The position numbers were made by a program, and so were the translations under genes. A stretch of DNA of 64,000 bases from Gnetum montanum (lineage: Eukaryota; Plantae; Gnetophyta): positions 160,817 through 224,816 of the forward strand of contig MNCI01001933.1 of the NCBI GenBank assembly GCA_015680685.1, in the 5' to 3' direction. How positions within the stretch are numbered: the stretch's first letter is position 1; each line of letters opens with the position of its first letter. Positions 24,701-56,300 of the stretch are shown in pieces. The notes under the pieces were generated by a model. That model ran no database searches and was not told where the DNA came from. It was given only the letters and a program-made list of their open reading frames with translations.

Positions 24701-25741
24701 TGATGAGACGCGACATGCACTGTGCCGCGATATCGCGTCTTCCCCTGCGATATCGCGTACGCGATATCGCGGTCCGCCGCCATATCTATAAATAAGAGGC
24801 GGCACTCCCTTCATTTCCCAATCCTGGCTAGAAGTAGCGAAGCTCTGGCAGATTGATCACTCCAGAGTTAGAATTTTTCCCATGTGCCCGCAGTAGGAGT
24901 CCTAGAGTGAACGGCTCTTTATTCGAGCAGCTTGTAACCTGAACCCAAGTTGTGTACGGCAATAAAGACGAACTTGATTGGATAAACCTTGCAGTACATG
25001 GTTTTATTGTTGTTTATTTACTGCTTTCCTAGTGCGCACAAGTACGACTTGATTACGAGCGTCTACGGACGTGTACGGCTAGTCAAGGAATCGGCTGCTT
25101 GTCGCAACGCATGAGTACAACTTGATTACGAGCATTGGCTGCTTGGTAACCCAGTAGCGTATTCCAGGATTCTACGCTTGGTAATCCCAGTGGTAGTCCA
25201 ATGTGTACGGCTAGTCAAGGAATCGGCTGCTCATCGCTAGGCTAGAACGTGTGATAAGTACGACTTAGTTACGAGCACCCACGGGTGTGTACGGCTAGCT
25301 AAGGAATCGGCTGCTTATCACACTTAAGCTAAATAGGTGCCTCAGTACGACCACTTCGAGCACTTGCGTTACGTGTGGTGATCCCAGTAACGATTAGCGT
25401 TTGGTAAGCCACAGTTGCATAGTTCAGGGTGTGTCCGGTAAGTGGGAACGGATGCTGACGCTAGTTAATTTAGACTTAGGACATTAGTTAGAGTTAGTTA
25501 GTCTCTCAACCCTTTCTCCCATAGCTTAGGCGATAAACCTGAAAATACCAAAAAAATCACATACCTCAGACTTGCTTAACCATACACCGTGACACTTACA
25601 AGCAAGCCTGGGAAGACAACGAACGATTAACCCCAAATGTTTCTTGTGGTGTTAAGGCATTTAGTCTGCGGAGTTCAACCAGATCGCGCGTGCACGCTCG
25701 TATTCGTATGGTTGAGTGTAGGGGTACCTCGCCACTCATCA
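24701..25741 (+). repeat. 3' LTR of element A (1041 bp)
   Basis: Preceded by the PPT and followed by the TSD GATGA. Carries three copies of gtgtacggctagtcaaggaatcggctgct. Confidence 0.95.
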
Positions 25742-28398
25742 GATGATAATGGATGAAAGTTATGACAAAAAATATTGTGTACAACTTTTATGAATGGTTG
25801 ACTGATATGGTGTCCATTACAAGAAGTACTCTATAGGCTACTATACAAGGACAAAATTTCATTTTCAATGTTCATGACATTGCAGATGTTATACAAGTTC
25901 TACGTGGTAAAGAGGTAGCTGTCAAGGATCAAAGGTGGAAGAAAACTAAGATTCACCTAATCCAATATGTGCAAAAATTTGAGAGGAAAGATGATAATCC
26001 CTCTAATTATCGAGAGCTATTGTTGCTTTCCAAATTTACGCAGTGCTCTTTATTTCCAGTGAAAGCAATGAAAGCGAAGATTTCCAATAATGCAATTTTA
26101 TTGATGTGGGCATTAGAAAACAATGAAGGTGTTCCATTTGATATCCTGATGACTATATTGTCTAAAATGAAGAGGCAAGCAAGGTTATGGCAGCTACATG
26201 ATGTGAAAGAGTCCCTTGGCTTTCCAATTATAGTGACAAAATTATTGTTGAAAAAAATGTTCATTATATGGCTCAATGGAATAGTCTTCCTAGATCCTAC
26301 AAGCATAGTCAAGAGTACATCAGTGTCCAACAAGGGTGAGACCTCCTATTTTTTGAAAGAGCTTCAAAGCCAAGCTGCCAATGATAGTTGCCAACATGAA
26401 AAATGTTCTTAGCAATCCATTGAGGATAAGTTGGAACACATGATGGAGACATTAAATAATTGTTCTCAAAACAATGCAACAATCTGGAGTGTTGTGGAGA
26501 AGCTAAAATCAGATAGGCAATGTTTGATAGATGAAAACATGCAATTTAAGGTCAAATTTAAGAATTATGTAGCTAAACAAAATAGTTGTATATAGAAGTT
26601 GCTTGCTGAGAATGAAAAAATGGCGAAGCATATATTCAAACTAAATAATGAAATTATCTTCTTAAAAAAGCTACAAAGGATGCTTATGATAGCAAAGATA
26701 TCAATGCCAATGCAGTCAAAACTATCATAGGTTCATACCATGTCATAAAACCTTGTAGTTTGAATTCATTATTCATATGTTTTGAAAAATTTAATGGTCG
26801 TATTATGCATGTGTTGAATAGAATTGATTAATATGCTAGCAATGAAAGCTGCCAGAAGATTATTTGATTCTGTTGAAGGAAACAACAAAGAAGGATCTAA
26901 ACAAGATCATCCAAACAAACAAATATGTATGTAGAATTGTTTGGATTAATTCTGTATGTTTGTTGACTTCCATCTTATGAACATTTATAGTTGATGTAGA
27001 TTTCAGTAGCCCCATTGATCAACCTTCTAGTACAGTTGAGAAATGAAGCCTGCATACTTCATCACCCTGATTGGTCAATCATGTGCCACAATTGACAGAG
27101 TGATGCAGTTGCTTGTCAAAGGAAGTTTAGACAATGAGGTGCTTATTATGTCACCATTTTCCCCATTCATTATCATAGGATCATCTTTTAGGTTTGTATA
27201 CCAACTTGGATGGAAACAATGGCTTGATGATCATGTTATTGATGTGTACATCATGTAAGTAACTTTAGATATCTATTGTTGATTGTCAAGCCTCATTACA
27301 ATATTTTGTATTTAATATTATGTTTCAAGCTTATGTAAAGTCCCTTGAGAGTTAGATGACACAAAAGGAAAATAACCACCTAAAAGATAAAGCAAAGGAA
27401 CCCACCAAAAGACATGTCATCAATGTTGAAAGTGATGCAATTGTTAAAGAAGAGGTTAATGTGTTCGTGGGAGACAAGGACTTCATTGAAGAGATTAAAA
27501 ATTAAGTTTACTGGGATGAATTTCTTGAATCGAGACATCCATTATTTTGCACCCCATTCAATACTAGTGGACATTGGATGCTTGTGGTTGTAGACACCCA
27601 CAAAAAAGATGTTTGTGTATGATTTGTTACCTTCTTCCCAACATGTAGTTGTTGTTCAAAAGTTAATGTCAAGGTTGAATTTTTATTGAAGGGTGATTCT
27701 TCAATGGGTGAAGGCACAACCGAGGTGAAGGGAAAACGAAAGAAGATACCTCCAAAATGAAGTACAATGGTTGTGCAAGGTATTCCCTTGCAAGAAAATG
27801 GTTATGATTGTGGCATGTATACAATAATGTTCATGCATCATTTGGGTTTTGGAAAAGAAATTAAATTCAATAGTGAGTTTGTTTCAATGTATCAAAATAC
27901 CATAATATGGGAAATTCTTAGTTCAGTTTTTGATCAACCATGGACAAACATATGTTTACAACATCTTGTACATGAGGATTATACTAAGCATGGTTCTTAT
28001 CCAGTTTCTGATCACAAAAAAAACAATGATGTAAATTCTTGCTTGCCATCTTTAATGAAAGGCAAATTTTTTGTGCATGGGACAACAATGTATTTATCTC
28101 AAGGTATTTAATTGAAAATATATATGGTGTTCATTTATTCCATATTTGATTATTATTATTTTGAAATTTTAGAAATCGAATCTTTATTATAAGGTTCAAT
28201 ATGTATACAATAAATCATTGTCCACAAAGAAACTACTTTTCATAATATATATAAAAATATGTGTTTCCTTTGCTCCTATCTGCATGTTTCTTCAATATAA
28301 TGTTTAGATGATCAAGTGTGATGACATGCATTTCGTAGATGCACCTCGTGTATCACAGCATGTACAAAACTTATTTGATTTTCACGTTCACATCAGTG

Positions 28399-33789: not shown

Positions 33790-36520
33790 CCGAAAAGAAA
33801 CACTTAGATTGAATCTTCTCAACATATTTTTCAAGTTCTATAACACTCTCTCTATTTGTGGACATATTCTTTGCAAAATTTTTAAATGCCTTTTTCAATT
33901 TTGGTATTTTTTCTATCCAGCTTGCATTTACATTGTCCTTAAATGCTTAAAATTGCTCATCTGATTCCTGAATGTCATTTTTGTTGTGCTCATGAGAAGA
34001 TACTAAACTACTTTGTACGACATTGCTATTTGATTTCTTGGTGGTTGATCTGAATGTCTCAGGTGTCATCCCTAACTATGATGCCTCTTCACAGCTTGAA
34101 AATTCATGAGGCATAAATGAATTTAGCTTAGTAGGGATTCTTAAATCAAAATACTCATCTCTGAAGAAGAAGTTATATGCATTGTTATGTCCCTTGACTA
34201 ATATCAAAACTTTCATTGAATGCTTGCAAAAATGATCAATGCTGGACCATCTACACTCACAGAAAATACTGAAGGAGGAAACCTTCGAGACCTTGTACCT
34301 AGCATCCCATTTCAAAGAATCTTGACTATGCACAAAATATTCATCTTCTCTATCAAGGACTTCTTTGCAATCATCATCACAGATTTCAATAGCCTTTTCC
34401 CATGACTTCTTATTGATTTCTCTATCCTTTTGATTTATTGAATACCCTGCAACTTTAAGTCTTGCATTGTTTTAGTAATATAGTTGTACCTTTGTCAAAG
34501 TTTGTATAAGCCAATCAATGCGATGATATTTCCTATTTTTGATATCTCTCAAAAATTTTCCTTTTAAAAATTCATGATAGGACTCCACAGCATTGTTTGT
34601 GTGTTGTTGAGCATGAGAAATATCACAATAAGCTTTTGTCCGCATCCCTGAGAAATGAACCTTTGAGCCCATAACAACAAAAAAACAATGGAACATAAAA
34701 TCTAAATTTAATAAAATTGTAACTAAAAGATTGATTAAATATATACTTACGAACCACTAGCTCTTAAGGTAACTAATGAAATGAACGTTATGTTGATGGT
34801 CATTGACAAACTTGTTGATTTCCACCACAACATCAAAAGGTTCTTTGCATTCATTCATAATAAAGTTCAGATGTGCTGCCATTGCCTTTCTAGTTATCAA
34901 ATCTCTAACCTTTGTTGCTGAGTTCTTCCTCCATGCCCTCCAAACATGCCAAACACATAGAAAAATACAACAACCACATACAATCCTAAAAATTGCACAT
35001 AATGTTGCACATTCAATTCTAATATCTCCATCTCTTGATCTAAAATTTTAAATAACACAATTAATTTTTGTTTGTTAACTGTTACATTATATAGCATTCA
35101 TTTCAGCTTTTGAATCATCTAGCATAAAAACATTCACTGTCCATCGTAGCTCTCTAGACCGGCATCTTCTCATCAATGTCTTTGTACACCTAGAGGAGAT
35201 CACCCATGCTATAGGCAGTCCATTGTAGTAATGAATTGAAAGTCATGATTGTGTGTAGATGGAGTTGTTTAGGAAAATACCATTAATATTAGAAAAATGA
35301 CCCAATTGCAATACAAAATATTTTTTGATACATGGTTTCTAAAAAAAACCCTAAATATTTACTTACTCCATATTTGTCAATGTTGAAGGTTGAATCCATA
35401 ACAAGTATGTTGTTTTGAGATAGACCTATCATCTTCTTCAGTATCCATGGTGATTGCAACTCGATGATTTTTGGGATAGACTATTCAATGTTCTCCTCTT
35501 GATAGTAAAAAAAGAAATCTATGGTGCTTTGGTATCATAACCTCGTGCTAATTTTATCATGCTCACTTTTTTTGTATTTTGTGTAACATCTTTGCAAATA
35601 TTGTAAATGTCCTTTTTCAAAAGAAACATGTCTCTCTTTTGACATACCTTGAATTTTTTCCCTTCATTGAATAGATCTTTAATATATCTCTCATAAATCA
35701 TATCTACTAGAAATCTTTCGTTCCATAATGAGACTATCTTTTGATGTATCTTAGGGAAAATATGTATCTGACATGGGACTAAGCAAGCCATGACAATAAG
35801 CTTCCGACATGTCAACATGATTCATTTCTTTATACATAATGCATGCAACATGCTCAACACCATGCATAATGCAAACTATGAAATTACATTAGCAACCAGT
35901 CTTTCTGCCAATCCTGTTTCTTTTTCTTCCTTCCCTAGCTACCACTCCTATGATAACATTCGACCCATACGAACAATGATAACTGATTCATGTATATGCA
36001 TGGACATTAGGCACTTCTCCAATAATATGCATTATACAAATTATTTAATAAACATTGCTCGAGAATATTGAAATTCAAAAAAAAAAAAAAAAAACCTACC
36101 TTGTACAACAAGTGTAGTGGTTTGCTTGGGAGTGAGTTCCCTTTTCCCATTTCTGTTGGTTTTTCTTCTTATAGAAAATTTCACACAAAAACATTTCATT
36201 TGTCTATTTGCCTGCAATAAAATCATCCACTCTTTCTTTGTATATCCAAGCAAAGGCATCGTCATAAAAATAGGACCATCTTATTTCATTTTTTGAAAAA
36301 GTGCCAACTGGCGAGTCTTTTATTTCTTATTGTCATGTTGTTTCCCAAAAACCAACATGCTGTTGCCATCCTTGCATCTAAAAAAACACTTTTTTGTCAC
36401 TAACTCAAAGAACGATATTAAAATATACAAACATTGTAACGAATAAACACAACTTCACGATTAAATTAATCATCGATACATACCTTTATTATCACCACAC
36501 ACCTTGTTTTTGCTACTCAT
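33790..36520 (-). pseudogene. Degenerate intron-containing MULE (Mutator-like) transposase with SWIM zinc finger
   Basis: Motifs ILVMDSTFNIDKY, GLPIAWVIS, FMLDDSKAE, LCVWHVWRAWRKN, HTNNAVESYH...RIDWLI and the SWIM motif CECRWSSIDHFCKH (ORF 34076..34333). GT-AG gaps lie between the blocks. Confidence 0.85.
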
Positions 36521-36634
36521 CTTGAACTAGACGCAATGTTGCAATATAAAACCCCCGTTACTAGTTTATGTTCATTCATGCAATGTATTCTCTTATTTAG
36601 GTGGGTGCGACACACTGCATAATGCACCCGCTTG

Positions 36635-37870
36635 TAGTATTTTTCAATTGATTGTGACCAACTACCAGTAGTAGTCTGTTCGCAGTCGCTTCCAAAAAGG
36701 GTCTTGCTTCCAGTGATTTACACTTTAGTAGAAATTGAAGCTTCGAGTCGTTTCAAGCTCTTCCAAAGAGTGTTTTACGCTATCTTGTGAGTGGGTGCAT
36801 CTAGCACTTGTCTCACAGTGACTTTCAAAAGCGTTTTGGCAACCGAAAGTTCCCATTTGCCTTGGCATCGCTGCTTCTGGATAACAGGAGGCTTCTAGCA
36901 GTATTTTTCAATTGACTATGATGGACTATGAGTGACAGTCTAGTTGTAGTTGCTTTTGGAAAGGGTCATGCTTCCGGTAATCTGCACTTCAGTGGAAATT
37001 GAAGCTTCCAATAATTTCTAACTTCTTGCTCTTCCAAAGAGTGTTTTACACTATCCTATGAGTCAATGCATCTAACACTCGTCTAGCAATATCTTTCAAA
37101 AGCCTTCCAACAACTGGAAGCTCCCATTTGCCTTCGCACTTTAGTGGAAATCGAAGCTTCTGGTCATTCCTAGCTCTTTCAAAGAGTGTTTTACACAATC
37201 CTATGAGTGGGTGCATTTAGCACTGTCTCACAATTGCTTCCATAAGCCTTTCAACAATTGGAAGCTCCCATTTGCCTTGGCATCGTTGCTTTCAAATGAT
37301 GGGAAGGCTTCCAACACTATTTTTCAATTGACTACTACGATAGACTGTCAGCAGTAGTTTGTATGTAGCCTCTTCCGAAAAGGGTCATGCTTCCGATGAT
37401 CTACACTTAAGTGGAAATCAAAACTTCCAATAATTTTTGGCTCTTCTGGAGAGTGTTTTACACTATCTTGCAAGTCAAGTCAGTGCATCTAACACTCGTC
37501 TCACAATATCTTTTGGAAACCTTTCAACAAGCAAAACCTCCCATTTGCCTTTGCATCACTAATTCTAGATGACATGAAGGATTCCAGTAGTATTTTTCAA
37601 TTGACTGTGATGGACAACCACTTCCAGAAAGGGTCTTGCTTCCGATGATCTACACATTAGTGGAAATTGAAGTTTCTAGTAATTTCTGGTCCTTCCATAG
37701 AGTGTTTTACACTATCTTGCGAGTTATTGCGTCTAGCACTCGTCTCGCAATATCTTTTGGATGCCTTTTGGGATCCAAAAGCTCCCATTTGCCTTGGCTT
37801 TTGACAATATTTTTCAATGCAGTCTATTGGGTCATGTTTCTAATGATTTGCACTTTAGTGAAAATTGAAA
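36635..37870. repeat. Degenerate tandem array, ~260-bp unit, about 4-5 copies
   Basis: Recurring blocks tatttttcaattgac, aagggtcwtgcttcc, gagtgttttacactatc and ctcccatttgcctt, with unit starts near 36637, 36900, 37316, 37588 and 37806. Confidence 0.8.
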
Positions 37871-38188
37871 CTTTGGATCATGGGAGCCTCTTTCTCATGA
37901 GATTTTACTGGAGACTGCGAAGGGATGCATTTTGCAGAGTCCTCCGAAATTTCAATCTTCCCATGTGCTACAACAGACTACGAGTATGTTCATTCTCATA
38001 CTTTCGATTGCGAATAGATGCAGACCACATTTCTACATATCCATACATAGATGGTTGAACAAACATAATGTATCTCAATCATAATTTTATTCACGCCCAT
38101 CATAGTTTCATTGCTGCATACATGGGCCACCAACCATATCATAAATTTCTTTACACCCTAAAGGAATCAGACAGTAACCATGTCCCCC

Positions 38189-39850
38189 AAAGCCCTGTGC
38201 GGACTGCCTCGGCTTAGGACTCTGCATTTACGTGCCAATAATTTTACTGGAGGTATCGATGCACAGATACGATACGTAAAATCCTAACAACGGTTGTATC
38301 TTGGGAGTGGGGACGAACAAATTTTCAGGAATTCTAATCTCAGAGATGGGCAAAGGTAACATTGGATTTTAGCGGAAACAACATTTCAGGTGAGATTCCC
38401 ACAGCCGTTGCTGCGGTAAGGAATCTGCATTACTTGAATCTGAGCATGGACAGCTTTCAGGGTCCCATTCCGGAACTTGGCAAACGCTAAACGCCTGAAA
38501 TCTCTAATCTTTCCAATGATCACTTGCATGGGAAAATTCCTGAGGCATTAGGACGCCTGAAGCTGAGCTACTTGGATTTATCTAACAATGATCTCAGCGG
38601 GCCTGTTCCAAATTTCATTCTGAATATGATCACTAAACCTAAAAGCAGATTTGCCGGCAATCCAGGCACGCGCATGAAAAAAGCCAGCAGGGTTGATCCC
38701 GGGTTCATTATTACTCTTCCAGTTTGTGCGGATTCCAGAAAACCGCATTCGTACTCTACTAACTTCATAGCATTGATCGTTGCAGTCTTTGAAATTTTGT
38801 TTGTTGGATTGATGTGGATGAGCCTTAGGAAAAACAAACAAACATACAGGAGGACAAAAGGAAAGGAATCTCCAGGCGCCATTTCTCTGTGAAAGCTTTC
38901 CAGGACATCGATTTCTCGGCGGAGGAGATTTTGCGAGTCATAGAATAAGTGGAAAGTATGGAAAAGTCTATAGAGTGAATCTCAAGAATACTGTAACGGT
39001 TGCAGGGAAGCAGATTTGCAGGGAAGATGTTAGCAGATTAGAGAGAAGTTTTAATGCAGATGGGGAAATCGTTGGTCGTGTTCGCCATACAAACATTGCA
39101 AAGCTTTACTGCCGGGTTTCAAGTAGCAGATTTGATCTCTTCGTAAGCGAATATCTGCCCAACGGAGATCTGTTTCAGGCTCTGCATGAAAACCAGGCAG
39201 AAAATTCATCCATGAACTGGCCGCAGAGATATATGATTGCCATGGGTGTGGCCAATGTGCTGGCATATCTCCACCATGATTGCCATTCCCTAATCATTCA
39301 CGAAAATGTCAAGAGCAGAAACATTTTGCTAGAGTTAGATCATGAACCCAAGATTACCGATTTTGGGGTATTAAAAAATGTTCAGGATCCCGAACAGCTT
39401 CACTCATTCAGTAGAACAACGCCGGGCTACATGGCGCCGGCTAAGTGCAGAAAACCCGTTCCGAAGCTTCCTGCTGAAATTTGTTTTTCTTAATGTCCAC
39501 AGACTACAATCAGTATCTGGAAAATTTGTGTGTCTGCAAAACATGTCTTTTCTCTGAAACCCACAGAGAAAAGCACTGTGCATGGTTTTGGGGTGCTGCT
39601 TCCGGAGCTGCTGCTTGGAAAAGAGGTTGCTGGGTTGCATTTTGGCCAAGCCAGAGACATTGTTTCCTGACTTACAGAGTTAATGGCGGATCCCGACACG
39701 GTTGTGGAAGATTTGTTTGATAAAGCTACTACGCAAACTTCTAGGAAAGATGTGTAAGGCGTTAGAAGTTCCTCTGCTCTGTGTTTCGAGAATTCTTAGT
39801 GGGCGACCTAGTATGAAGATGTTATAGCGTTGAAAATTTGTAATCCATGC
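38189..39850 (+). pseudogene. LRR receptor-like kinase pseudogene, C-terminal LRRs, transmembrane segment and kinase domain (LRR-XI)
   Basis: GKIPEALGRLKLSYLDLSNNDLSGPVP, TM segment FIALIVAVFEILFVGLMW, and kinase VRHTNIAKLYC...LAYLHHDC..IIHENVKSRNILL..KITDFG..GYMAP. Catalytic HRD has decayed to HEN. The conserved intron after GYMAP has a broken donor (g|ctaagt). Frameshifts present. Confidence 0.9.
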
Positions 39851-41353: not shown

Positions 41354-44300
41354 CTATCAAGGTGAAATAAACATAAAATTTGGTGAGTTGTGCAGAAATA
41401 CCTTTAAAAAAAGGGTTTTTTTTTTTTAAAAAAAAAAACAGACTACCAATGCAAGAACATAATTCTCAACCTACAACTGAAAACATGGCACGGATCCTCA
41501 GAAATTCTCAACCTAACCCTGCTTGCATGAATACATATTCTGAATTTTAAGCACTTTATGTGTGCATGAACAGTGCTTAAAATTCAGAACAATGTGCCCA
41601 TGGAGACCTATGTAAATGTATCTTTTGCTGCTTAGTCTTTATCTATGCATAGCATACTTTGACTTTTCATCTCAATTTTTAATAAGACAATGCCAGAGTA
41701 TTGACAGAATACCTACTGTTCTTGCACACAGAAAAAAGGATCATCACCTGGAGCCTTAATGCTCATTTCACCAAGCTGGGTCTTGGGAAAGTTGGTAGAT
41801 GATTGAAAGCCCAACCTCTTTTTGAGTGGTTATGGCCAAGATCAAACCTGTTTTCTGACTCGAAACAAGCACCTTACCAATATTCCATATGTTGTGTATT
41901 TTCTGACTTGTTTCTAATACTAAAAACTTAAGAGCATATTATATATTGTTGTATTGTCTGACATTCCAATACCATAAGCCTCAGAGCAAGACCATCATTT
42001 CAGATGGCATTAGTATCCTTTTATTTTAATTTAGTTTGAAATGAGTAAAAAAGATACAATTAATGAGAGAGTTTAGATTTGGGTGCATGCAAGAATTCCC
42101 CGGGAATGCAAGATATCTTTAATGAGAGCGTGAGACCATCGTTCACATCTCTCGAAAGCCATGTCAATAGTTATTCCAAGACATAATGAAATATTTTTAA
42201 AAAATTTCAGATGTTTAACACAATAAATTATAGAGAATCTCAAGTTCTTCAAGACAGCTTCATTTTTTTTAAAAGTACACTATATGATTGCGGGCTGCAA
42301 TGATTGACACCAAATGAAAACATCCAATTTTTAACTAAGAGCATGTTGTACACCTGCTAAAAGAGATACTTGTTACCGTTTATTCAATCTACTCTTTATT
42401 TTAAAAAGTGTTACCTGTTCATATAAATGTTCAATTTGCTGTGCTTGGTGTAGAACATGTGTTGAAAATAGATGATTTAAAGCTGACATTTCTATCATTT
42501 TGGATTCTGTTTCTTCAACTGCATCCAGAAGATCAGTAAGCTCCACCTGCACAACATGAAAACATTCTATTTGAGAAATAGTAACTGAAAAAAAAAAGCT
42601 AGCTTAATAAATCATAGCACACAAACAGTACTAATAAATATATTACCTGCAGAGCTTGCGTCTCTTCATCTAACAGTTGTTGCAGCTCCTTTGATTCAAA
42701 GGAATAACTTTCCTTAATTTTTGGCTCCGTCTCCGAGACATCTCTATTTAGAGGTTTTTCTGTGACATGACACTTCTGTTCAGAATGTCGCATCTTCTTG
42801 GAAATTTTTCTATCAAGCATTGCTTGTAAACGCACTGAACGCATTTGTTCAAATACAGCAGCGACCGCATTTAGATGATCACTTAAAATCAAAACCTGTT
42901 TTCATCAACTTACTATTTTAGAAAAAGGAACCCGATGAAAGATAGCAGTCTATTTGTTTGGATGTAATTACAGTCAAAGGAATGTAAATTTTTTAATTTA
43001 AAATATACAAGTGAATCGCATAACTCGTTTCATTTAATTGGGCATTTTTACCAAAATCCAGCACAGAGGCCAAGACTTGTTAGGAGGATGATTGCAGATT
43101 TTTTGTCTAATTGGAAAAGGTCTCAAGGCTATACATATGTTCACATAAAAGCAAGGGTTTTGAACACCCTTACTCTCTGTGTATATTATGAAATTTGGTT
43201 GGAATTCGATGCATCTACACCGTTGGAACTCATCCTCCACAGTGCATTTGGTCTGTGGCACTCACCCTCTAAAGAGACTTGACACATTTTTGGAGGGGCT
43301 TTAAGGGAGATCATGCAAATCTTTTTTGCTTAACATTTCCGGAAAGACTGCCTATTTGTTCATTCACCAGGGTCAGCACGAAATCACGATGAAAGGAACA
43401 AAGGAAGTGGCCCTCAGTAGCAATGACTGAATAAATATTTCTTTATTTGACATTCAAGAATGCAGATGATCAGGAATTCCAACATATTGTATTAGATGGT
43501 GAATTTGCTTTACTGTGGCCACTATACAGCCGGGATAGATATTGTATTAGAATATTGCATAGGTTTCAATCCCAATCTCAAGCATCAAAACCGCAGGGAA
43601 TTATATTACTATCTCTAACAAAATAAAATATAATGCAATGCAGCATTTCATTTTAAGTTTTCATTTAACCTTCCATATTATACATAGACGAGCATGAATT
43701 GTGAGATCACTAACCCCTTATCTAACAATATGCATGTAAGATATGGTTGAATATTTTTACAGTAATGATCCACCGAGAAAAAACAAAACAAAAACAAAAA
43801 CCTTTTTAAATTTTTCATTTTCCAAAAGTATCATATGCCTTACCGGTACTTCTTCAAGATTTATTTCATTAGCTATGTGTTGGTGTGAACCTCGCCCATG
43901 CTAAGCATGGGGCCATGTTTAAATATGTTCGAATACCATGAAAATTTAAAAGTCCTATTAGTCTGCTATCTTTACCAATATGCATTTATTCATCAACAGA
44001 TATATAGTCCAATTAAGACTTTATAACTCAGTGTTTCCCTCCAGAGCCAAACTGATGACTTTGTTTTCAGATCAAGAGTTTACCACTAAGCTAGCACCTC
44101 ATTATTTGATACCATTAATAGTGAATGAGTTGTAAACAATGTTAATGGAAAGAGTCACATGGAGCCTCAACCAAGTTACGCTAAACAGATTTCTTTAATT
44201 TAGCTTAACACATTGCAAGTTGTAAGTTTTGACTCATAAATTATACTTAATGGATAAGGAGTTGTAAACTTTGAGAGGTTTTTTAAAATAAAACTTTAAT

Positions 44301-47300
44301 TATTTAAATCCAAACTAATAGTTTAGAAAACTTTATTGTATTTTATTATACTCGATAAAAACTTATTTATTTTATCATCATAATATTGAGTAAACCTAAA
44401 TTTTAATAATCATAAAAATAAGTAGTTACATTGAACTTATTCCTTATACTTAAATGCAAATAAATACATTCTCTTTATGGAAATTATTTGTGATCAAGGT
44501 GACCCAACAAAATAATTAATAAAAAAAAAAGCAAGACCCTATGTTAGGTTAAAACAATAAAGGAAGAAAAAACTTACTCCAATGCAATTGCCAAGTTTAT
44601 CATTTCAACCCATCCTAATTTGTTTAAGGTCGATGTTTTAACTCTCCCAACTTTTCAGTAGTTGTATAAAGATACGAGTGTACATAAATCTGAAGCGCTC
44701 TCATGTTAAGCGGGAAAAGTCAAAAGCATATACGGACTTCTTCGGTGCAGACTGTTCACTCCAACTGCATGCGATGTTAAATTAGTTTTTAGTTCATGAG
44801 CTTTGATATAAAATTTTATTTTATTTCTAAGACTCCAACAGAAAAATGAGTAGAGTTTATCCCTGGTTTTTAATTGTTGTTTTGAACAGGAGAATTTATT
44901 AGTATGGAACCACAGCACAGCACGGTCAGAGCTATCTCTCCCATCCTGCAATTAAGCAACGAAACAACAAACACTAAATACAGGTGGCTGGAAATATTCA
45001 GGAACATCATATGTGGGTGATGGCTGAAACCGGTGGCATTTGCGGCAGAACGTGGGGTGGTGGAGTAAGTGGTTGGGCGTTTCGTAGAGAATGTGGTGGT
45101 GGCCGAGAAGGTGGCAAAAGTTACACCAGGGGAGCTGTGGTGGTGGTAGAGATGTTGTGGACATGGGCATTCATTGCCATTGGCTAGGAAGCCTAAAAAT
45201 GATTGTAGGATGCATGGATCAACATTCACAAACGTTCCTAAATGGGAGTTACAAAACGTGGTTGTGGTTCATGGCAGACAGAATGCGGTGGCACGGCCTT
45301 TACAGAAGGTGGGGCATTCGTGGCACTGAAGGTGGTGGTGGTTACACAGAACATGGGCATTCATGGCAGCAGTGGTGGCAGGCATTAGACAGGTAATGGG
45401 TTGTAATTGATGCGGTTCCCTGCCAGCAGCTATAAAACAGGAGGTCAGCAAGTGTTTAGAAAATCATCAGATCCTAGGAGTAGCCAAGAACCCAACAGGC
45501 GGGCTTCTTTTTTTTTCGGGGCATCAAGCCTCCCCTAGCATCTCAGTCTAGAACCTCTAGTCTTTCCTAGAGGTGGTAGATAGCGGGCTCCCTCTATGGT
45601 GTGGGATCCAGCTTCTTCTCTCTCACCAAAACAACAGTATCTTTTTCTTTGGGGCTGTAGTGGGCAGCTCTCTCTCTCTCTCCATTGGCAACAGCAGTGC
45701 ATAGGAACGGCTAAGAAACTAGCAGGCAGCAATTTCTTCCTTCTTCTTTTATGCTACAGCAAGCAACCTTCTCTCTCTCCCTAAACAACGTACCCATGGC
45801 AAACGATGCCATCTGCCTCTTTCCTCCCTTCTGGTCCGCGTGATAGGCAAGCAAGCTCCGAAGGCAGCGGTGGCGATCGTGACAACGACGGTGACATATG
45901 TGTGCGTGCAGCTCACTTCTTCCCTTTCTCTTCCTCTTCAACAGCGGTCGAAGTCTTCCTACCCGGCAATGAACACCACTAGTAGTGACAGACAACGGCA
46001 TCAATGGGATGAGGAAAAATTTATTCATTTTAGTCACCTATTGTATTCTAGAATTTCAAGAACAGTTTTTTTTTTTTTTAATTCCCCAATTTTCCAGTGT
46101 GATTTAATATTTTGAAACATCACATAGCCCTCTCTAGGTGAGACTATTCCCAAGTTTCTCTACCCATACAGGAGGCGCCCTAGGCAATAGTCTCCTAAAA
46201 CAAGTTTTCTTTCCTGGTGTTCGTGTGTCCAAAATTTACGCATCAACACTATGTTATGTCATTGACATTTCTGAACTTCATGATAGAACCTTTTTTCTAA
46301 AATACCAGGGCTTGAATGCAACTCTAGAACCAGCAGATAAATGGATGACACCATAACCCATGTAAGCTATATATTTCCACTATGTTATCTGGACAATGGA
46401 ATGCTATGTTTTCCCATCAACTCCGATCTTTTAGATTTCATAAACCTTAAAATACCGAAGCGATTTCCTTACGCATCGTATCAGGTAGACATCTAGATAA
46501 GAAAACAACCTTAACTGAAGTTACGTACGTGCCCCTAATATCTCAGTAACATTTCTAATTGTCTAGATGTTTTTGCTCATGAAATCATAGCTCTGTCATC
46601 TATAGATGGCAGTGTAATGTCTGTAAACAGAACTGCTAATAAACACAATAAAATGCAATAAACAAGCAAATTAAGTTGTCGCCGTATCAAATAAGATGTA
46701 TCAGCATCATAACTATGAACTCTGACCAAACATTCCTTGCAAGGAACATACATCCTTCAACAATCGTATGTCTTGTTCAGAACTATTGGAAGTAAAAGAA
46801 TTGGAAATCATTGAATCAAAGCTTAATGCCTATTTACAACCTGCAAAAGTGTTGAATGAAATCTCAAAAAAGAAGCGACACTAAATTATGATTTTAGTAT
46901 TGCCTGCAGTTGAGATGAAGAAAAGAAATTCCATGGCACGGAGCTTTCATTTGAAATTATGATAGGAAACCAATAGGCATCATGGTTTTTATCAAGTTTC
47001 TGTATCATAATCTGACCATGCCAAATCTAACATAAAAGAACTGCTTAAAAAGATTTAATAGGAAAATGAACTTTTGTTTCTGGAAAAATAAAGGAAAGAT
47101 ATGTGTGGTCCACCCTTCACATCTCATTTATATAGATGTTTAATTACATCCAAGACTATGGATCTATAGGAGGTTTCAAAATCAGCCACGTGAAGATATT
47201 TCGAAATTACTTTCTAAGTCATTTTTATCATAAATGCTCATTAAACAGGAATAGATAAATGAATAGAAGTTTTTTCTTTTACATCAAATGATCTCCGGTG

Positions 47301-50300
47301 AATAAATGAGTGGATAACTGGACTTGACTTGATTTTACTTGACACACTACATCTCATCCCATTACAGGATCTTACATTATTTAAAGGTTGTGGCCCCTCT
47401 ATAGAAGGTCATATTTACAAAGCAAGAGTGATTACAAAAGTTAACGTGTTTTATCTTAGTAGCTAAGAAATTAGTTAATAATAGTTACAGAATTTGACCA
47501 TTGAAATTGCCATATTCCAACACTCCCCCTTAAATTTTCTACTGGGTAGCATTGATTTATAAATTTTTTTTAAAAAAAAGACCCATAAAAGGAATTTTGA
47601 AACTGGTCCAATAGATCCAAGGGGTCTCAGTGGATGTAAGTAAAAATTTCAGTTTCAGTTTCAGAAAATATGTAGTGGAATCTTTTAATAGCTCTTATGG
47701 TTTGAAATCTTTCACCCCAAGTAAAACATTGGTACAGATTGAAGATATCACCGCACATTCTTGGGCTTCTGCTCACTGTGAATTTTCTCACCATTGTCAT
47801 TGGTATGGTTTTTCATAATTCTCTTGCTTTGTGGGCTCCACTGGTTCCTTGATTTCTTTTACTTCCATAGGATTTCATGCCCATTGGTTCCCTAAGTCCT
47901 CAGACTCCTTGTGAACTAACTTCTTAATGAAGTTGTTTGAGGTACCATACTATTCAACAACTACGAATTTCCAAGTGCTTCACAATTAGTGTGAGTTTTG
48001 TTCTTCCATAATCATCTGCATTATGAAGAACCTCCATTGCTACTTTTTAGTAACATCTTCTAAGGCTTTTTAGCTTAGACTTCCACAATGCATTGTCCTT
48101 TGATGCTTTTGAGTCATGACATGGTTTTTAGGCCATCCCCTTACTCTCAAGGCCATTCTGTTTCTTCACCTCCATCAGTATCCAGCTATCTTGGATTTTT
48201 GAGGTTTTCCATGATTAGAGTTCTTGCGCTTCCAGTTGACTCATCATTTATCATGATGGCCAATTTTATTGTTACAGAACTTTCTCTCTGTCCATAGTGT
48301 TAACAAAAGAATGAACAATAAGCATCAACAGTTCCCCTCATTGTGGAATCCTTTTTTGAAGCTGCAAAAGACAGCTCCTCCAGATGATGAGGTTAAAGAA
48401 TCACATATTGTAACAACATTGCCCCGACGTTGTTCGCAAGGAATTCCCTTAGGGGTGTTGGACAACGTCAGGGCAACGTTGTTACAAGTGGTATCAAAGC
48501 ATTTTTGTAACATATTGTAACAAGTGTGTTACCCTCTGGCAGTGTTATACTTTTGAGGTTTCTTATTTATGGTCCTTTCGGATTTGTATTCCTGGTGATA
48601 TAGGATCATATCCTCATGTATTCTTCGAAGAGTTGCCTTATAGTAAGACTCTTAAGCTTTTCATTTTTGGGCCCAAGCTACAGTGCTAGCAGCCCATGTA
48701 TGTTCTTCTTACTAGAGAATGTATTCGATTGCATTGTGGTGTGTCCTTCACTAATTTACTTGTGGTTGGACTAGTTGCGGTGAGGAGAGTTCTATTGGCA
48801 ACTTACAAATTGTTGTTGCTTGAGGAGCTCTCATCTCGGGTCCCCAGTGGTTCATCTAAGATGAATTGGACCTCCACCCAAATGACATGTATCTAGATGG
48901 CATTGATCGGATTGTGCAGGATGTGGTATCCTTGCACACCCACTTATCTTAGATACAGTGAGTGTGGGAATTGCAAACTGGGACATGCTAGTTCCCAAGT
49001 ACCTTAGGATGGAAGGCCTTCAGACATGTGCTCCTGGTGAGCCTTATTTTGGGTGGATAAAGACTGTCGCCACTAGACTTCATATGCTTGGGTTTGCGAT
49101 TGTATGTTTATCTAGTTGTGTCAGCGTGTCTTTCCTTGGCTGCATTTTCAAATTCTACATGCATGTCCCTCTGGTCATGTCTATCATTCGTTAATGCAAG
49201 GCTTTGTGCTCTATACTGAATGATGACTTGTTGTTGGGATTGTGGAGGATGCAAGGATGCATTTTAAGGCCATGTGTGCCATCCCCAAGACCAAATTGTT
49301 GGGGTCCTTGTTTTGATAACCTCTTGTGCTTCAAGTTTGGCTAGATTAAAGATGGTCCTAGGAAGCCTTCAAAATTGATAAAAAAAATGAATCAACGGGT
49401 GTTGAGAAGCCATTCAAGAAGGAACTTGGCTGGAATTGTGGAAAAAGAGCACATCTTCTTGCATAGGTATGGGTCTATGTAGGAAGACAAGTCTCTAGAC
49501 CTGATAAGGGACAGATCTAGGGGACGTTGGCCCTTTGGGTTGGACTTATTCCTCTTGTCACAAAGTAGAGAAAGTTTTTTGGCTTCCTTCAAGTGTCCTT
49601 TGTGTTTCATACAAGGCCACGGATGGAAGGACGTATCAGGTGTTGGGGTTGATACTTTACTTCAAGCCTGGCGTCAATTGAGTTCATGGACTCCCCAGAA
49701 TTGACAAAGCTCCAAACCCATTCTTGACGTGTACTCGCAAAGCTTATCCTAGGTTCTGCTATGAGGACGTCGCTTCTTTTGTGCTAGGGAGAATTGTGAG
49801 AGAGGTCCTAGGATGGAGGTTCTCCTGGTCTGTCCCCATGGTTCGAGGGGCATGGAACACTCTGATGTGTCCTTCAGTGGCACTCAAGTGTTAGATACCC
49901 ATCCCAGCTTGGCGATACCAAGCCAACAACAGGACTCCCTCCTGTTGCATCCCTTTCTAAGTCATCTTCATACTACCCTCACATGAGAATTACATGGCCT
50001 TGAGTCTATAGTGGTTGTAGATATGTAGGCAGCCAGGATTGGATAGTTCTGGTGCAATGCCTTGCTAAACCTTGTACCAGATTATAAGGGGTATGGAGGT
50101 GAGGCACCCCTTGTATAAACATCGTCTCCCCTTCCACTGATGATGTCTACAAGGTTGCTTGTGTACTTGTTTGCTAAGTCCTTGTTAGAAGTTTAGAGGT
50201 TCCTTGAGGTGTTTTCTCTCTTGTTAAGAAGATATTAAGCCACTTGCTCGTTTCCAAGGGATGCTTGTTGGTTTAGAGGCGTATTCCCTAGGTCTTCCGC

Positions 50301-53300
50301 TCTAGATCCATTAGATCTAAGGGAATTCCTTGGGGTGTCAAACAGCATCGAGGCAACGTTGTTACACGTACCTTCGCAACTTCATACATCTATCCTTTTT
50401 CATAGCTTAAAATTTGTGGCAATGAAGAGATATTCCACAAACTTGTGAAAAGCATCAATTGGTAATGCTTTTGTTAATGCATCTTGAGTGAAAGACAATT
50501 TCTGCAACTACTAATCTCATTAGCTCCATTTTGACTCACCACCCCTTTTATGAAACAATGGTAAATTCTGTTGTCAAAAAATATTGTAGTCAGTTAATCC
50601 CAACCACTATGAGCTCTTGGCTCCCCCTTATCTGATCAATTCATCAAGGAATGATTGTTACATCCCATCCAGATACATTAGGTATGGCTGTACGATTATG
50701 ATTGATACATCACGTGTGTCTCGATGGGTTATTGGGGACGACTTAGCTTATTGTAATTGCACTTTATATGTTATGATTAACATAACTGTCTTTACATGCT
50801 TAACTAACGTGATTATGTACACTAGCCCTGTGATGTGTTAAATAGGTTATGTTGTTGGCAGGGATGTTGGGCTGGGGTACGAGAGCACCTATTCGGTATG
50901 TATTTATGTTTTATGTGTGATTTTGGTATTTATGCATTTGCACTATAGCACTATGTTGTGTGATGCTTGGGTGTGATTTTGGCATGTGAAGGTGCAGAGC
51001 ATTTGATAAGGATCTCGTAGGTTCAAATGGATTTTGATTTGGAGTTCTAGTATGTTTGTTATGCATGATTGAAGTTCACGACCTTAGTTGTGGAGGATAT
51101 GAAAATAGAAACTTAGGAAAATTAATGGGGTTTAAAAAATGGGTAAAAAAAGTACATAGATATATATGAACTTTTTTTTTTTTTTGAGAGAATGTTCGGG
51201 GCTGTATTACTGTAAGTTATGGTACACAAGTATACAAATTAAAGGGACATCAAGGATGGCCCACTGGGAAGGGGAGGAGGTGGAAGCCTCGGTACCCCTC
51301 TTAACCGCAGATTTCAAAACGCAAAAAGCTCAGAGCTCAAAAACTCAAAAACAGGGGGGGCACACCCCGTATAAACAAGGGGGGGAACAACAACGGGTGG
51401 CAGGGGGGGGCCTTAGGGGCGAGTTGGCAGATGGTGGCAGGCACACTAAGGCCGTTCAAGCTCATGTAGCAAGTCCAGGGTGTTGCAGTGCTCTTCGGTG
51501 TCCATGAAGTTCGCCGCTTGTTGGATGCCCTGCATAGCAACCTCTCGCCTGCTCCGGTCAGCCGATGAGTCCCCTGCATCCGGATGGAATTTTGTTGACG
51601 TGCGTCTGATATGTCGCCTGAGTTCCCCCCAGGAGCTCTCACAACTAATGCCCAAGAGGCTGTATGGGCAGCGCCCCCCCCCCCCCAAGCTACTGACGAG
51701 CACTATGCTCGTGTGCCCGGTCAAGCTACCTTTGTCGTTGCTCTTCTTCTTCCTGCATGCGTTGCTGCTCTTCCCGGGCGGCCGCCTCTTGGGCTTGACG
51801 GGCCGCCTCCTCCTGGCGCAACTCCTCTCTAACTTGGTCCCAGAGCTCATCAATGAGTTGGGCTCGAGAGGCCTCCATCATGATCGCGTGTTGTCGGGTC
51901 AGCGCTTGTTCTCGTTCACGAAGCTGGGCTTCGTGTTCGGCACGAGACTTGGCCAGGGCCTCGGTCCACTTTCAAGTGGGCTTGCACGTGACATGCATAA
52001 CTTTCATAAAAAACCAATGACTAAAAAGTAATGGTTATGCATAAGAAATAAACCTTTGTGCAACTAGCATAAATGCACCCTAACAAGCTGGGCTTCAAGT
52101 AAAGTTAGTCTCCTTCCTCAACAATCAAGTCAAAGGAGATGCTATGTGAGAAAAATGTTCCACAAACCTATAGTAATATCCTGCTAATCCCAAGAAGCAT
52201 CGCACCTCCACTACTAATTACAGCATAGGCCAATCACAAACGGCTGCAATCTTTGCAGGATCAACAAAGATACCAGCTCCTAACACCACATGTCCCAAGA
52301 ACTGAATCTCTAACTGCCAAAATGAACACTTGGATGGTTGAGCATACAGTTGGTACTCTCTCAAAGTTTGTAAGATTGTCCACAAGTGCTCTGCATGCAA
52401 CTGCTCATCAGGAGAATATACTAAGATATCATCTATGAACACAATCACAAACTAATCTAGGAATGGCCACATCACACTATTCATGAGGTGCATAAAAATT
52501 GCTGATGCATTTGTCAACCCAAATGGAAGCACCAAAAACTCATAATGGCCATATCGTGTTCTAAATGTTGTCTTTGATACATCTCATTCACAAACCTGCA
52601 CTTGATGATACCCAAACTTAAGATCAATTTTTGAGAATACATGAGCTCCCCAAAGTTGATCAAACAAGTCACCAATGTGTGGCAAGGGATATTTATTTTT
52701 CACCATCACCTAGTTTAGTTATTTATAATCTATGCATAGTCGCAAACTCACATCCTTCTTTTTAACAAATAGCACTAGTGCATCCCATGGTGATACAGGA
52801 GGTCGAATGAGGCCTTTGTCCAGATATTCCTATAGCTGAATCTTTAGCTTTGCTAGCTCTATAGGAGACATCTTATGTGAAGCCTTTGAAATAGGCTCGG
52901 TACCAGGTTTAAGTTCAATTTCAAACTCAATTTCTTGCCTCGATGGCAAACCCAGTAATTTTGATTGAAACACATCAAAAAATTCTTAAACCACAGGAAT
53001 TTGATCTATTTCCACCCTATCTGTTTTATATATTGTAGCAACAAAGCATTCATGCCCTTTTTGAAGCATCCTACAATACATCCGAGAGGAGATCAAATCT
53101 AGGCACATAGTCCTCGAACAAGTTTGTACCTCAATCGAAGCACCATCGACAAATTGTAGTATTAGGAGCTTCTGCCAATAGTCCAAACTAGCATTGAACT
53201 ACGACAACCAATCCATCCCTGAAATTACATCATATACCCCAAGATCTATAACATGTAAATCACTAACCCGCTGCACACCTTTCAATTCTATTGGCACACC

Positions 53301-56300
53301 TATACACACCTAATCAACTTGAGTTTCATGACCCCCAATAGAAGATACTATCAACCTAGGAGAAAGAGAAAGACATACAAGAGCTACATGATGTGCAACC
53401 ATAGGATCTACAAAAGAATGGCTAGCACTTAGATTGAATAAAATCAATACATCAAAGCCCAAAATCGTGCCTCCTGTCTCCATCACTGTGTTTGGCTGCA
53501 CATCTAATGGCTGGTTTGTTAAGGCATACACCCATCCTTGAGTCCTCTAGTCCCCTCCTCCTAGTTGAGTGACCAGTGTTCCACATTCACCCTGAACTGG
53601 AGGCTACTATCCTCGACGCCTACCTCCTCCACCACTACTTGCCTATTTCAAGCACTCCCTAGCGTGGTGTCTTGGCTGCCCACATGCAAAACAATTCCAG
53701 CAATCCCTCTACAAATGGCTAGGTTGCCTATATCTATAACAAACAATCAATCCATGACCAGCTCCAACAATAGGACCAGGAGCTGCTGTTGAGTGCTCAC
53801 CTCCATGTCCATGAGCTTGCTTGGAGGGGCCAGGCCTCTCTCTAGATGTTGGTCCTTTCTTCTACTCCTACCCTTGTCACCTCTCTCTACGAGCTACATC
53901 TTCTTGTTGACTCCTCTCTGAATCCATGGCTATTACTCTAACCTCATCATAGGACGTCAATTGGAGGGGTAATATGTGGTCCTTCAAAGATGGCCTCAAA
54001 CCTCTAACAAATCTGTTCGGCCGAGCCTGAACATCTATTTGCATTTGTGGTACATAACTACTAAGCTCAAAGAAACAAGCATCATACTCTGCCACAGACC
54101 AACTACCCTAATACAAACGATAGAACTCGTCCTCCTTGGCCTAAGCATATTGGGTAACCAGATAATGGGCTCTGAAAGACATCAGAAAATCATCCCATGT
54201 CACCTCTTGGCCAGTCCATCCCTTGGCTTGCTCTTCAGTCATCCACCAACGCCGAGTAGTACCAACCAACTGATAGACTACCAAGCGAGTCTACTAAACC
54301 AATGAACAACCAATCAGATCAAAAGCTTTTTGCAATTCCTCCAACCATTTTGTAGCTACAGTAGGATCCTCAATGCCATCAAATTTAGCAGGTCCAAACT
54401 TCTGAAACTATTCTACTAGTTCCCTATTGATAAGTTGCCTATTTGACTCTCCTGAGCCTCCACTACCACTACCACTTCCCACTTCCCTGATCATGGGAAC
54501 AGGAGCATCACTAGCTACAACATGCTACTACAAGATTTGTAACAGCTGTTGTATAAAATTTGGTTGCCTATTTGCAAGACCACTACTAGATGTTTGAGGA
54601 GGTTGCTCTGGCCCATCATTAGGCCCTTCTAACCTGCGAACCCTAACAACATCATGACCACGTCTACTATACATATACATAACCTAAAATCACAAATGGA
54701 TGAGTACCCCAGACATCATACAACATCAAAGTAAACTAGCTTTGATACTACCCGCCCTAGCGAGGGCAAGGTGATGGCTAGGATCACTAGTAATATTACA
54801 ACGGAAGCATGATAAACTAAAAACTAATGATGTGTGTTTATGGTATGCGGTGGCAAAGGCAGTGGGATGTAGAGACATGCAATTTTATAAATCGACATGT
54901 ATGTTTAGTTTTTGGTTTGGCATGGATTTTTGTGCAACTTGACCTTCCTTAATATAACGTATTTCTACACATCATTAGTTTTTAGTTTATCATGCTTCCA
55001 TTGTAATATTACCAATGATCTAAGGCATCACCCTGCCCGAGCTAGGGCAAGGTGTTACAATGATGATCAACTTCTATAACCACAAAATTTTGTGGCTACT
55101 GAGCTCTTTCTCTCCCTTGTGACTCAACACACATTTCATCATGTTGGTGGCTTTGCAATTTAATAATTACAGAGTTGTTCCTCCAAAGTGTGAACTTCCC
55201 TTTTTATAATTGTGCAACTCATAGTTACATCCATTTAGACAATCTTCCAACTAATTTTGCAATTGTGAAATTCGTGGGTACTTGTTCTTCAAGCAGCCTC
55301 CATTAACTTCTCTAAAGTCTGTCTTCTCTTACCCTTCATAATGTATGATGTATCCCTCATCCCTTCCAATATGTTCTTTGTAATACATCCTCCACAGCAA
55401 AATATTGAATAGTTCTTTCTCCAAGGGTAAGCTCCTTGAGTTTGTTACAATGAACTCTAATGCAGTCTTGTTTACCACAATCTTCGTCACCACCTCATAC
55501 AGGTTTTTAAACTCCATAACTTTCACTTGAATCTATTACCAAACTAGATGTTGGTCCTCTTGCATGTCATCTGGTCTTAGAATTCTGCAACTGGTTTTGT
55601 CAGCACTAAAGTTTTCTGATGGTGTGACCTTGGCAATCCACATAGCAATGTTGTGAATGCCTTGAAAGATAGCTTTGGTTGCTGCTTACTCTGCCTTTGC
55701 AACTACATTGCAAAGTTGTTGAAGTTTTTCCACTATTTCTGTACTGGTATTTTCCTGCAGTCATCCTGAGATTTAGCATTGATCTGCCTACCTTCTCGTC
55801 ACTTTGTTTGCATTCATATTAACTTTGATTCAATTTCATAATTATCTGTAGATGGTATCTGGCTCCGATACCATATTGAACTTTTCAAGATCAGCTTCGT
55901 GCAAATATTGTGAAATTACTTTAGAAGTTAATTTTATTGTGAATGTTCATTGCACAAGAACAATGAAACGATAAATGAATAGAAGCTTTTTCTTTTAGAT
56001 CAAATGATCTCTATTGAATGAATGATTGGATGAGCTACAAAAGAAAATGACTTAACATTACTCAACATGCTACACCTCACCCCATTATGATATTTACATA
56101 ATTTGAAAGGTCATGACTCCTCTATGGAAGGTCATGTTTACAAAGAAAGAGTGATTACAAAAGTTAGTTAAGAAGTTTTATCCTTGTAAGTATGAAAGTC
56201 ATTACTAATAGTTACAGAATTTAACGATCAAGATTGTTCCAACATGAACTATTGGACCCTTTCCATTTTAATAATTTTTTGCATAAAATTCATATATCTC

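What the first reader, a model, noticed from the sequence alone, without database searches (positions are those of the whole stretch)
51172..51990. Poly(A)-tailed retro-insert encoding a coiled coil plus a divergent J-domain: possible retroelement-borne Hsp70 co-chaperone
Seen: an ~820-bp GC-rich island inside an AT-rich LTR, with a T14 tract at its left end. Its minus strand encodes a long E/Q/R/A-rich helix, a Gly linker, then CPYSLLGI...[17 protein letters not shown]...[13 protein letters not shown]...LD, a stop, ~260 nt of UTR and poly(A). Only two TAG codons (plausibly CAG>TAG) and one extra G in a G13 run break the frame. Established: Y.xLG...I.K.YR..A.K.HPD...F..I..AY..L.D...R..YD is the J-domain that recruits Hsp70, and J-domains are used by some viruses (e.g. 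polyomavirus T antigen). I know of no J-domain as a standard part of plant LINEs. Inference: the base composition differs from the host SYP81 exons, the domain is more divergent than typical host DnaJ proteins, and the ...tctctc(A)n end with 5' truncation is L1-like. This fits the 3' end of a LINE family carrying a J-domain on ORF2 or an extra ORF better than an ordinary processed pseudogene. No TSD could be confirmed.
Basis: partly seen in the sequence, partly recalled or inferred. Interest (0 to 1): 0.8.

Follow-up and report, generated by a model that had tools for sequence, protein, structure and literature searches.

The report
Plant retroelement encodes Hsp70-recruiting J-domain
This is a broken, 5'-cut copy of a many-copy plant repeat that ends in an A-tail and encodes a long helix followed by a chaperone-adaptor (J) domain whose key motif is kept across diverged copies, so the element, likely a LINE-type retroelement, would likely enlist the host's Hsp70 chaperone.

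Summary
The insert is real: GC 0.52-0.59 against 0.35-0.36 in the flanks, with a 14-base A-tail. It encodes an E/Q/R/A-rich helix and a J-domain (Pfam PF00226, E 8e-6, just under the curated cut-off). No genome was held, so I laid public contigs on it. About 2,000 contigs per DNA run, in two species, cover the stretch, with up to 92 distinct contigs at one base, while the 5' junction is nearly bare. It is a many-copy family, not a gene with one or two retrocopies. Other copies run on in frame past 51972, are open at all three stop codons, and keep His-Pro-Asp through synonymous changes. Corrections: the 5' end is 51972; the 'stop' after the J-domain is this copy's own mutation; one stop replaced Trp, not Gln; the flank is not shown to be an LTR; no target-site duplication is confirmed. 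The upstream part was never seen, so LINE membership is untested. The J gene may belong to an LTR or DNA transposon whose mRNA was retrocopied. The scan noted this family before on another piece of this genome. My searches found no paper on it.

The parts
51172..51185 (-). poly(A) tail, 14 bases
   Evidence: sequence; 3 RNA reads of run X22 carry an A-run next to the same 3' end (table 7)
51186..51412 (-). likely 3' UTR of the element, with homopolymer runs
   Evidence: GC 0.515; shared by other copies at 51200-51331, thin cover at 51332-51397 (table 2)
51413..51448 (-). likely C-terminal tail of the gene: a copy-specific TAG at 51446-51448, about 10 more codons, next in-frame stop at 51413-51415
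   Evidence: (table 3); the stop at 51413-51415 was not checked in other copies
51449..51673 (-). J-domain, HPD at 51578-51586
   Evidence: Pfam PF00226 E 8e-6; PDB sequence hits led by J-domain proteins; Atlas; model with J-type helices
51674..51686 (-). 13-base homopolymer run; frameshift in this copy
   Evidence: two contigs that bridge it are 1 and 4 letters shorter, which puts helix and J-domain in one frame (table 8, records 5 and 20)
51687..51972 (-). E/Q/R/A-rich predicted helix (likely coiled coil), two copy-specific TAG codons; 5' truncation point at 51972
   Evidence: loose ends at 51972 continue the frame without a stop (tables 7, 8); no family match
51973..52070 (.). 98-nt AT-rich segment between the insert and the broken gypsy RT; near-unique; holds a doubtful degraded target-site duplication at 51990-52003
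   Evidence: depth 0-12 at 51992-52057; TSD tests
50656..55059 (-). host gypsy-type LTR retrotransposon remnant (gag, protease, RT breaking off at 52071) with identical 5-base flanks; target of the insertion, not part of the J family
   Evidence: loose end at 52071

Best explanation
This is a dead, 5'-truncated, A-tailed copy of a many-copy repeat family, likely a LINE or LINE-dependent retroposon, whose last gene encodes a long helix followed by a J-domain that would likely recruit the host's Hsp70. Shown: many diverged copies in at least two species; an A-tail; truncation at 51972; other copies open at the three stops; HPD kept through synonymous change. Inferred: the copy arrived by target-primed reverse transcription of the element's polyadenylated RNA, stopped early, and then decayed. 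Inferred and untested: the protein is a class C J-protein. Its helix and the unseen N-terminal part would hold a client, and the HPD loop would trigger ATP hydrolysis by Hsp70 so that Hsp70 clamps on and remodels that client. The client I think most likely is the element's own reverse transcriptase-RNA particle (about 0.5 within this explanation). A host silencing or chromatin complex is the second choice (about 0.4).
For: Family: 2184 (X2, organism A) and 2037 (X7, organism C) contigs were laid on 51200-52160 at 80% or more, a count that includes the gypsy RT end of the stretch. 86 and 92 distinct contigs share one difference at 51623. Summed depth is 1,600-23,700 over 51464-51958, against 0-12 at 51992-52057. 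19 of 24 listed runs, in 8 coded organisms and 12 studies, hold part of the stretch; only 4 runs were laid. Truncation: 7 X2 contigs and 2 X8 pieces leave the window at 51972, and the loose letters give 10 more open E/R/A/W codons in the helix frame (read by hand). Selection: all 4 loose-end rows that cover the motif (27, 31, 3 and 9 contigs) keep His-Pro-Asp, using two His and two Pro codons, both Pro codons unlike this copy's. In the X2 row 13 of 30 letters differ, 8 of them at third positions, yet 7 of 10 residues are the same and the others are T/A, K/R and F/Y. A row in helix III keeps 8 of 10 residues with 4 synonymous changes. The helix IV Arg of the J consensus (recalled) is Cys here but Arg in 96-97% of laid depth. 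Tail: 3 RNA reads have an A-run at the same 3' end, and most laid reads have the first mate on the + strand, which in most stranded libraries means RNA in the J-gene sense. Domain. Precedent for added C-terminal domains in LINEs: PMC4686597 (passages). HPD is essential for Hsp70 stimulation, and viruses encode J-proteins: PMC13254874 (passages).
Against: No RT or endonuclease has been seen upstream. Two X8 contigs run on past the tail site with the same non-A sequence (table 7). No target-site duplication is confirmed: p 0.34 in the first test, and 0.0015-0.02 only with a transition-tolerant score chosen after seeing the match (8 of 14 identical). Depth near the tail (340-1,300) is far below that over the J-domain, so most copies may not share this 3' end. 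Two X7 contigs join helix and J-domain with a net loss of 32 letters, out of frame if their 20-22-letter short side is aligned correctly. One loose-end row in the helix (X2, 51743, 7 contigs, median 8 letters) reads a stop. The Pfam score is 1.5 bits under the cut-off. The Y of helix II, the F of helix III and the AY motif, all kept in most of the 8 public J-domains aligned, are replaced. The single-sequence model was poor (pLDDT 58). RNA support is 27 reads of 12.9 million, none 99% alike, and the gypsy RT also drew reads. Only 40 of 179 difference rows and 21 of 425 loose-end rows were shown.
Confidence: 0.58

Rival explanations
1. The helix-plus-J gene is an accessory gene of an LTR retrotransposon or a DNA transposon. 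This insert is a retrocopy of its polyadenylated mRNA made in trans by LINE enzymes, and the high depth comes from the parent elements.
For: Two X8 contigs continue past the tail site with shared non-A sequence. Depth at the 3' end is much lower than over the J-domain. Two unchecked AI notes report an LTR-type accessory domain (PF20167/PF03078-like) upstream. Such domains are described in LTR-element extra ORFs (PMC11728184, PMC7264820, PMC11963269; passages).
Against: The tail site is shared by other copies or transcripts (3 X22 reads). The two X8 contigs could be two forms of one locus with a tailless copy. The notes report another A-tailed, 5'-truncated copy on a different piece of this genome (unchecked). 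Abundant retrocopies of a transposon mRNA would be unusual (own knowledge).
Confidence: 0.27
2. The J-domain is a captured host fragment riding passively in a retroelement's 3' end, with no function for the element.
For: This copy has three stops and a frameshift. Several consensus J residues are replaced. One helix variant reads a stop.
Against: Subfamilies differ mostly at third codon positions and keep HPD, and the stops are absent from 91-99% of laid depth.
Confidence: 0.07
3. It is a processed pseudogene of an ordinary host DnaJ gene or gene family.
For: An A-tail, 5' truncation and lack of introns fit a retrocopy. The protein libraries seem to lack this plant (the host exon found no relative either), so the failure to find a parent is weak evidence.
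Against: Up to 92 distinct contigs at one base, depth like that of the neighbouring gypsy RT, and several diverged subfamilies. GC3 is 0.60-0.64 against 0.32 in the host exon. None of the 10 listed joints has canonical intron ends (table 5).
Confidence: 0.07

Closest known systems
Plant L1-clade LINEs
   Same: A-tail, 5' truncation, many copies; some carry an extra C-terminal RNase H on ORF2 (PMC5203782, passages).
   Different: The 3' gene here ends in a helix and a J-domain, not RT/zf-RVT/RNase H. 'DnaJ' has 0 occurrences in that paper's main text and in the 2 supplement files that could be searched. RT is not seen here.
Insect R1/TRAS LINEs with a captured viral SF1 helicase (PMC4686597)
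   Same: A foreign domain added at the 3' end of a LINE's coding region, proposed to help the element or to counter silencing (passages).
   Different: Different domain and host; there it is fused to ORF2, while here the link to ORF2 is unseen.
Additional ORFs of plant LTR retrotransposons (Athila PF20167/PF03078, Retand TRP28 with SMC-like helices)
   Same: Extra element genes with long helical parts and no known function (PMC7264820, PMC11963269, PMC11728184; passages).
   Different: 'DnaJ' has 0 occurrences in each main text; those genes sit between LTRs, while this copy ends in an A-tail.
Virus-encoded class C J-proteins (polyomavirus T antigen, phage Rki)
   Same: A mobile genome's own HPD-bearing J-domain that steers host Hsp70 (PMC13254874, passages).
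   Different: Those are viruses with tested Hsp70 binding; here it is a genomic retroelement, the J-domain is C-terminal, and binding is untested. 'transpos' has 0 occurrences in that review.

Membership tests
J-domain (PF00226), class C J-protein | Profile match over most of the domain | tested here: met
   E 8e-6, profile 2-59 of 63, only family hit; 26.3 bits is under the 27.8 cut-off in this decayed copy
J-domain (PF00226), class C J-protein | HPD in the loop after helix II | tested here: met
   51578-51586; kept in 4 of 4 loose-end rows that cover it
J-domain (PF00226), class C J-protein | Helical hairpin fold | tested here: inconclusive
   Single-sequence model pLDDT 58, no clear match. 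Model built with 8 J-domains, pLDDT 78, matches J-domain chains at probability up to 1.0, TM up to 0.75, best E 0.018; it leans on those rows
J-domain (PF00226), class C J-protein | Stimulates Hsp70 ATPase | not testable with these tools
   needs a biochemical assay
LINE (non-LTR retrotransposon) | Poly(A) or simple-repeat 3' end | tested here: met
   14-base tail; 3 RNA reads with an A-run at the same end; 2 contigs without
LINE (non-LTR retrotransposon) | Dispersed copies, 5'-truncated | tested here: met
   many distinct contigs; others run on past 51972. Truncation is shown for this copy only
LINE (non-LTR retrotransposon) | Variable-length target-site duplication | tested here: inconclusive
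LINE (non-LTR retrotransposon) | Endonuclease and reverse transcriptase of LINE type in the full element | not testable with these tools
   no genome held; no second copy in the window; no true relatives in the collections
LTR retrotransposon additional ORF | Gene lies between two LTRs in parent copies | not testable with these tools
   only 30-letter loose ends were visible
Processed pseudogene of a host gene | Few copies of one parent | tested here: not met
   86 and 92 distinct contigs at one base, several subfamilies
Processed pseudogene of a host gene | Intron-containing parent gene | tested here: inconclusive
   no canonical intron among 10 listed joints; libraries seem to lack this plant

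The most novel reading that the evidence does not exclude
An autonomous plant LINE lineage, abundant in several related species, carries a third gene after ORF2 that encodes its own Hsp70 co-chaperone, and uses it as viruses use theirs, to assemble its reverse transcriptase-RNA particle or to take apart host silencing complexes.
Probability: 0.35. Interest if true: 0.85.

Novelty: new variant of a known kind. Interest (0 to 1): 0.63.

Why it matters
Viruses are known to encode J-domains to steer Hsp70, but my searches found no report of a plant retroelement that does. A conserved, element-borne co-chaperone would show that a genomic parasite can take direct control of the host's protein-folding machinery. 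It would give a single testable handle, the HPD motif, on how chaperones limit or assist retrotransposition. If the upstream part is a LINE, it also adds a three-gene layout to plant LINEs. The family is abundant in at least two species, so it has shaped these genomes.

Tried and rejected
No whole genome was held, so copies could not be extended 5'. Protein searches found no close relative: longer proteins, 0 of 134 candidates; the 1.84-billion representative library gave 10 hits, all generic J-proteins at 26-46% identity. The host exon at 42629-42901 also found 0 of 124, so these blanks say little. The metagenome scan gave 2 loci of 586 candidates, both the same antisense match in GC-rich bacterial DNA. 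The viral scan gave 1 of 24, a 10-residue match that I did not examine. No second copy lies in the window. The helix had no family in Pfam (best E 0.47) or the Atlas (best 0.80). The single-sequence fold searches gave no match at E 0.001 or better, and VIA-align gave generic bundles, best Z 7.2. My own J profile scored the real frame 54.1 bits against at most 6.0 in 1000 shuffles, but its rows were chosen by likeness to the query, so Pfam is the independent test. No run is on record as an RNA holder, which is no evidence either way. No complex with Hsp70 was predicted: a textbook pair with a stand-in host would add little. Plant auxilin-like proteins (helix plus C-terminal J, recalled) were set aside because this domain starts with the ordinary Y-x-x-L-G helix I; this was not tested against their sequences. 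Literature searches without a relevant hit. The library holds open-licence papers only, and Repbase-type reports are not searched.

Full report
Observation. A 14-T run lies at 51172-51185. GC rises from 0.363 in the left flank to 0.515, 0.571 and 0.594 across the UTR, J-domain and helix, and falls to 0.347 at 51973-52070. The minus strand gives a helix that is 68% E/Q/R/A with two TAG codons, a 13-base run at 51674-51686 that shifts the frame, and a peptide with HPD. Pfam finds only PF00226 DnaJ for that peptide: E 8e-6, 26.3 bits against a cut-off of 27.8. The PDB sequence search listed 46 matches at E 10 or better, led by J-domain proteins, best E 0.0024. The Atlas lists DnaJ clusters at 0.90. 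A single-sequence model was poor and matched nothing clearly. A model built with 8 public J-domains had pLDDT 78 and matched J-domain chains (TM up to 0.75, best E 0.018), but it leans on those rows.

It is a family. No genome was held, and the window has no second copy. Of 24 listed sequencing runs, 19 hold part of 51100-52100, in 8 coded organisms and 12 studies, with a best share of 0.27. I laid 4 runs on 51200-52160 at 80% likeness. X2 (organism A) gave 2184 contigs and X7 (organism C) 2037, most under 95% alike; these counts include the gypsy RT end of the stretch. Summed depth is 1,600-23,700 over 51464-51958, 0-12 at 51992-52057, and 5,000-10,000 over the gypsy RT. The tool warns that depth is no copy number, but 86 and 92 distinct contigs share one difference at 51623. 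A single gene with one or two retrocopies cannot give that.

This copy is cut and decayed. Seven X2 contigs and two X8 pieces leave the window at 51972. The loose letters, read by hand, give 10 more open codons of the same helix type, so the 5' end is 51972. At the two helix stops, 91-93% and 99% of laid depth read Gln and Trp. At the stop after the J-domain, 94-95% read Gln. That stop is therefore not the family's; the next in-frame stop is at 51413-51415. Two contigs that bridge the 13-base run are 1 and 4 letters shorter than the window, which joins helix and J-domain in one frame. Two other X7 contigs join with a net loss of 32 letters, out of frame if their short side is placed correctly (tables 5 and 8).

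The protein was under selection. Four loose-end rows cover HPD (27, 31, 3 and 9 contigs), and all keep it with other codons. In the X2 row 13 of 30 letters differ from the window, 8 at third positions, while 7 of 10 residues are unchanged and the rest are T/A, K/R and F/Y. A helix III row keeps 8 of 10 residues with 4 synonymous changes. One row in the long helix reads a stop in its poorly supported far part. These are hand readings of 30-letter cells; 21 of 425 loose-end rows and 40 of 179 difference rows were shown. It is not a dN/dS test.

How it arrived. An A-tail with 5' truncation is the mark of target-primed reverse transcription (established knowledge). Three RNA reads of X22 carry an A-run at the same 3' end, and most laid reads point to RNA in the J-gene sense. 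But only 27 of 12.9 million reads were laid, none 99% alike, and the gypsy RT drew reads too. Two X8 contigs run past the tail site without an A-run. A target-site duplication is unconfirmed: p 0.34 in a plain test, and 0.0015-0.02 with a score chosen afterwards for a 14-base match at 51990-52003 with only 8 identical bases. The insert lies in a gypsy-type remnant bounded by identical 5-base flanks at 50656-55059, 98 nt past where its RT breaks off. The left flank does not match that element's 5' LTR.

What is unseen. Nothing beyond 30 letters upstream of 51972 was visible, so RT and endonuclease are untested. Protein and contig searches found no true relative, but the host exon found none either. 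Two unchecked AI notes on another piece of this genome, possibly one locus, describe the same kind of element with an LTR-type accessory domain upstream of the helix. I could not check that, and a sequence look-up did not link them to this stretch. If right, it favours a separate last gene over a fusion to ORF2 and raises the rival in which the parent is an LTR or DNA transposon.

Mechanism. J-domains stimulate Hsp70 ATPase through HPD, and viruses encode their own (PMC13254874, passages). I infer a class C J-protein whose helix and N-terminal part hold a client while the J-domain brings Hsp70 to it. I favour the element's own RT-RNA particle as the client, by analogy with hepadnaviral polymerase, which needs Hsp40 and Hsp70 to prime (recalled, from no call). 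A silencing complex is the close second. Some consensus J residues are replaced, so activity needs an assay.

Known systems. Plant L1s can add RNase H to ORF2 (PMC5203782, passages; 2 supplement files searched, 1 not available). Insect R1 LINEs added a viral helicase (PMC4686597, passages). Plant LTR elements carry extra ORFs with PF20167, PF04195 or SMC-like parts (PMC11728184, PMC7264820, PMC11963269; passages). 'DnaJ' has 0 occurrences in those five main texts and in a review of giant transposons (PMC6431247, passages). PMC9940879 mentions DnaJ only for host gene names (passages). Searches pairing DnaJ or J-domain with retroelement terms gave 0 papers or, from the listings alone, unrelated ones. 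Searches supplied the comparators. The library covers open-licence papers only, and the unsearched supplement of PMC5203782 could list rare domains.

Verdict. A real, many-copy, A-tailed element family with a selected helix-plus-J-domain gene. It is a new variant of a known kind; LINE membership is likely but untested. Interest 0.63.

Noticed in passing
window 47174-56244: An old copia-like element (terminal repeats 47174-47522 and 55883-56244, 74% identical) holds two nested gypsy-type remnants, one of which holds the J-domain insert.
   Followed up: partly
window 54754-55048 and 48408-48487: Both nested gypsy-type elements have LTR-like ends that are imperfect palindromes (71-72% inverted identity over 300 and 86 bases), each next to a primer-binding-like site.
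   Followed up: no
window 50656-55059: The gypsy remnant has identical 5-base flanks, yet its left end does not match its right-hand LTR, and RNase H and integrase are missing after 52071; likely a deleted or recombinant element.
   Followed up: partly
window 18430-25741 and 7678-17478: Two related LTR elements on opposite strands. One has an intact 1031-codon gag-protease frame (19588-22680) with no RT seen after it; its LTRs are 94-96% identical.
   Followed up: no
window 25837-26409: A 191-codon open frame that looks by eye like a transposon accessory protein; Pfam gave no family at E 0.01.
   Followed up: partly
window 5649-6243 and 38491-39490: Broken leucine-rich-repeat receptor kinase gene pieces; the kinase piece hits PF00069 at E 7e-25.
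   Followed up: no
window 27761-28108 and 34079-35821: A Ulp1 protease fragment (PF02902, E 1e-5) and, by eye, SWIM/MULE-like transposase fragments, suggesting a decayed Mutator-like element.
   Followed up: no
window 36631-37938: An irregular tandem array of 88-178-base units, 60-85% alike.
   Followed up: no
window 51203, run X8: Two contigs continue beyond the family's tail site with the same non-A sequence; unexplained, and the best lead to the parent element.
   Followed up: no
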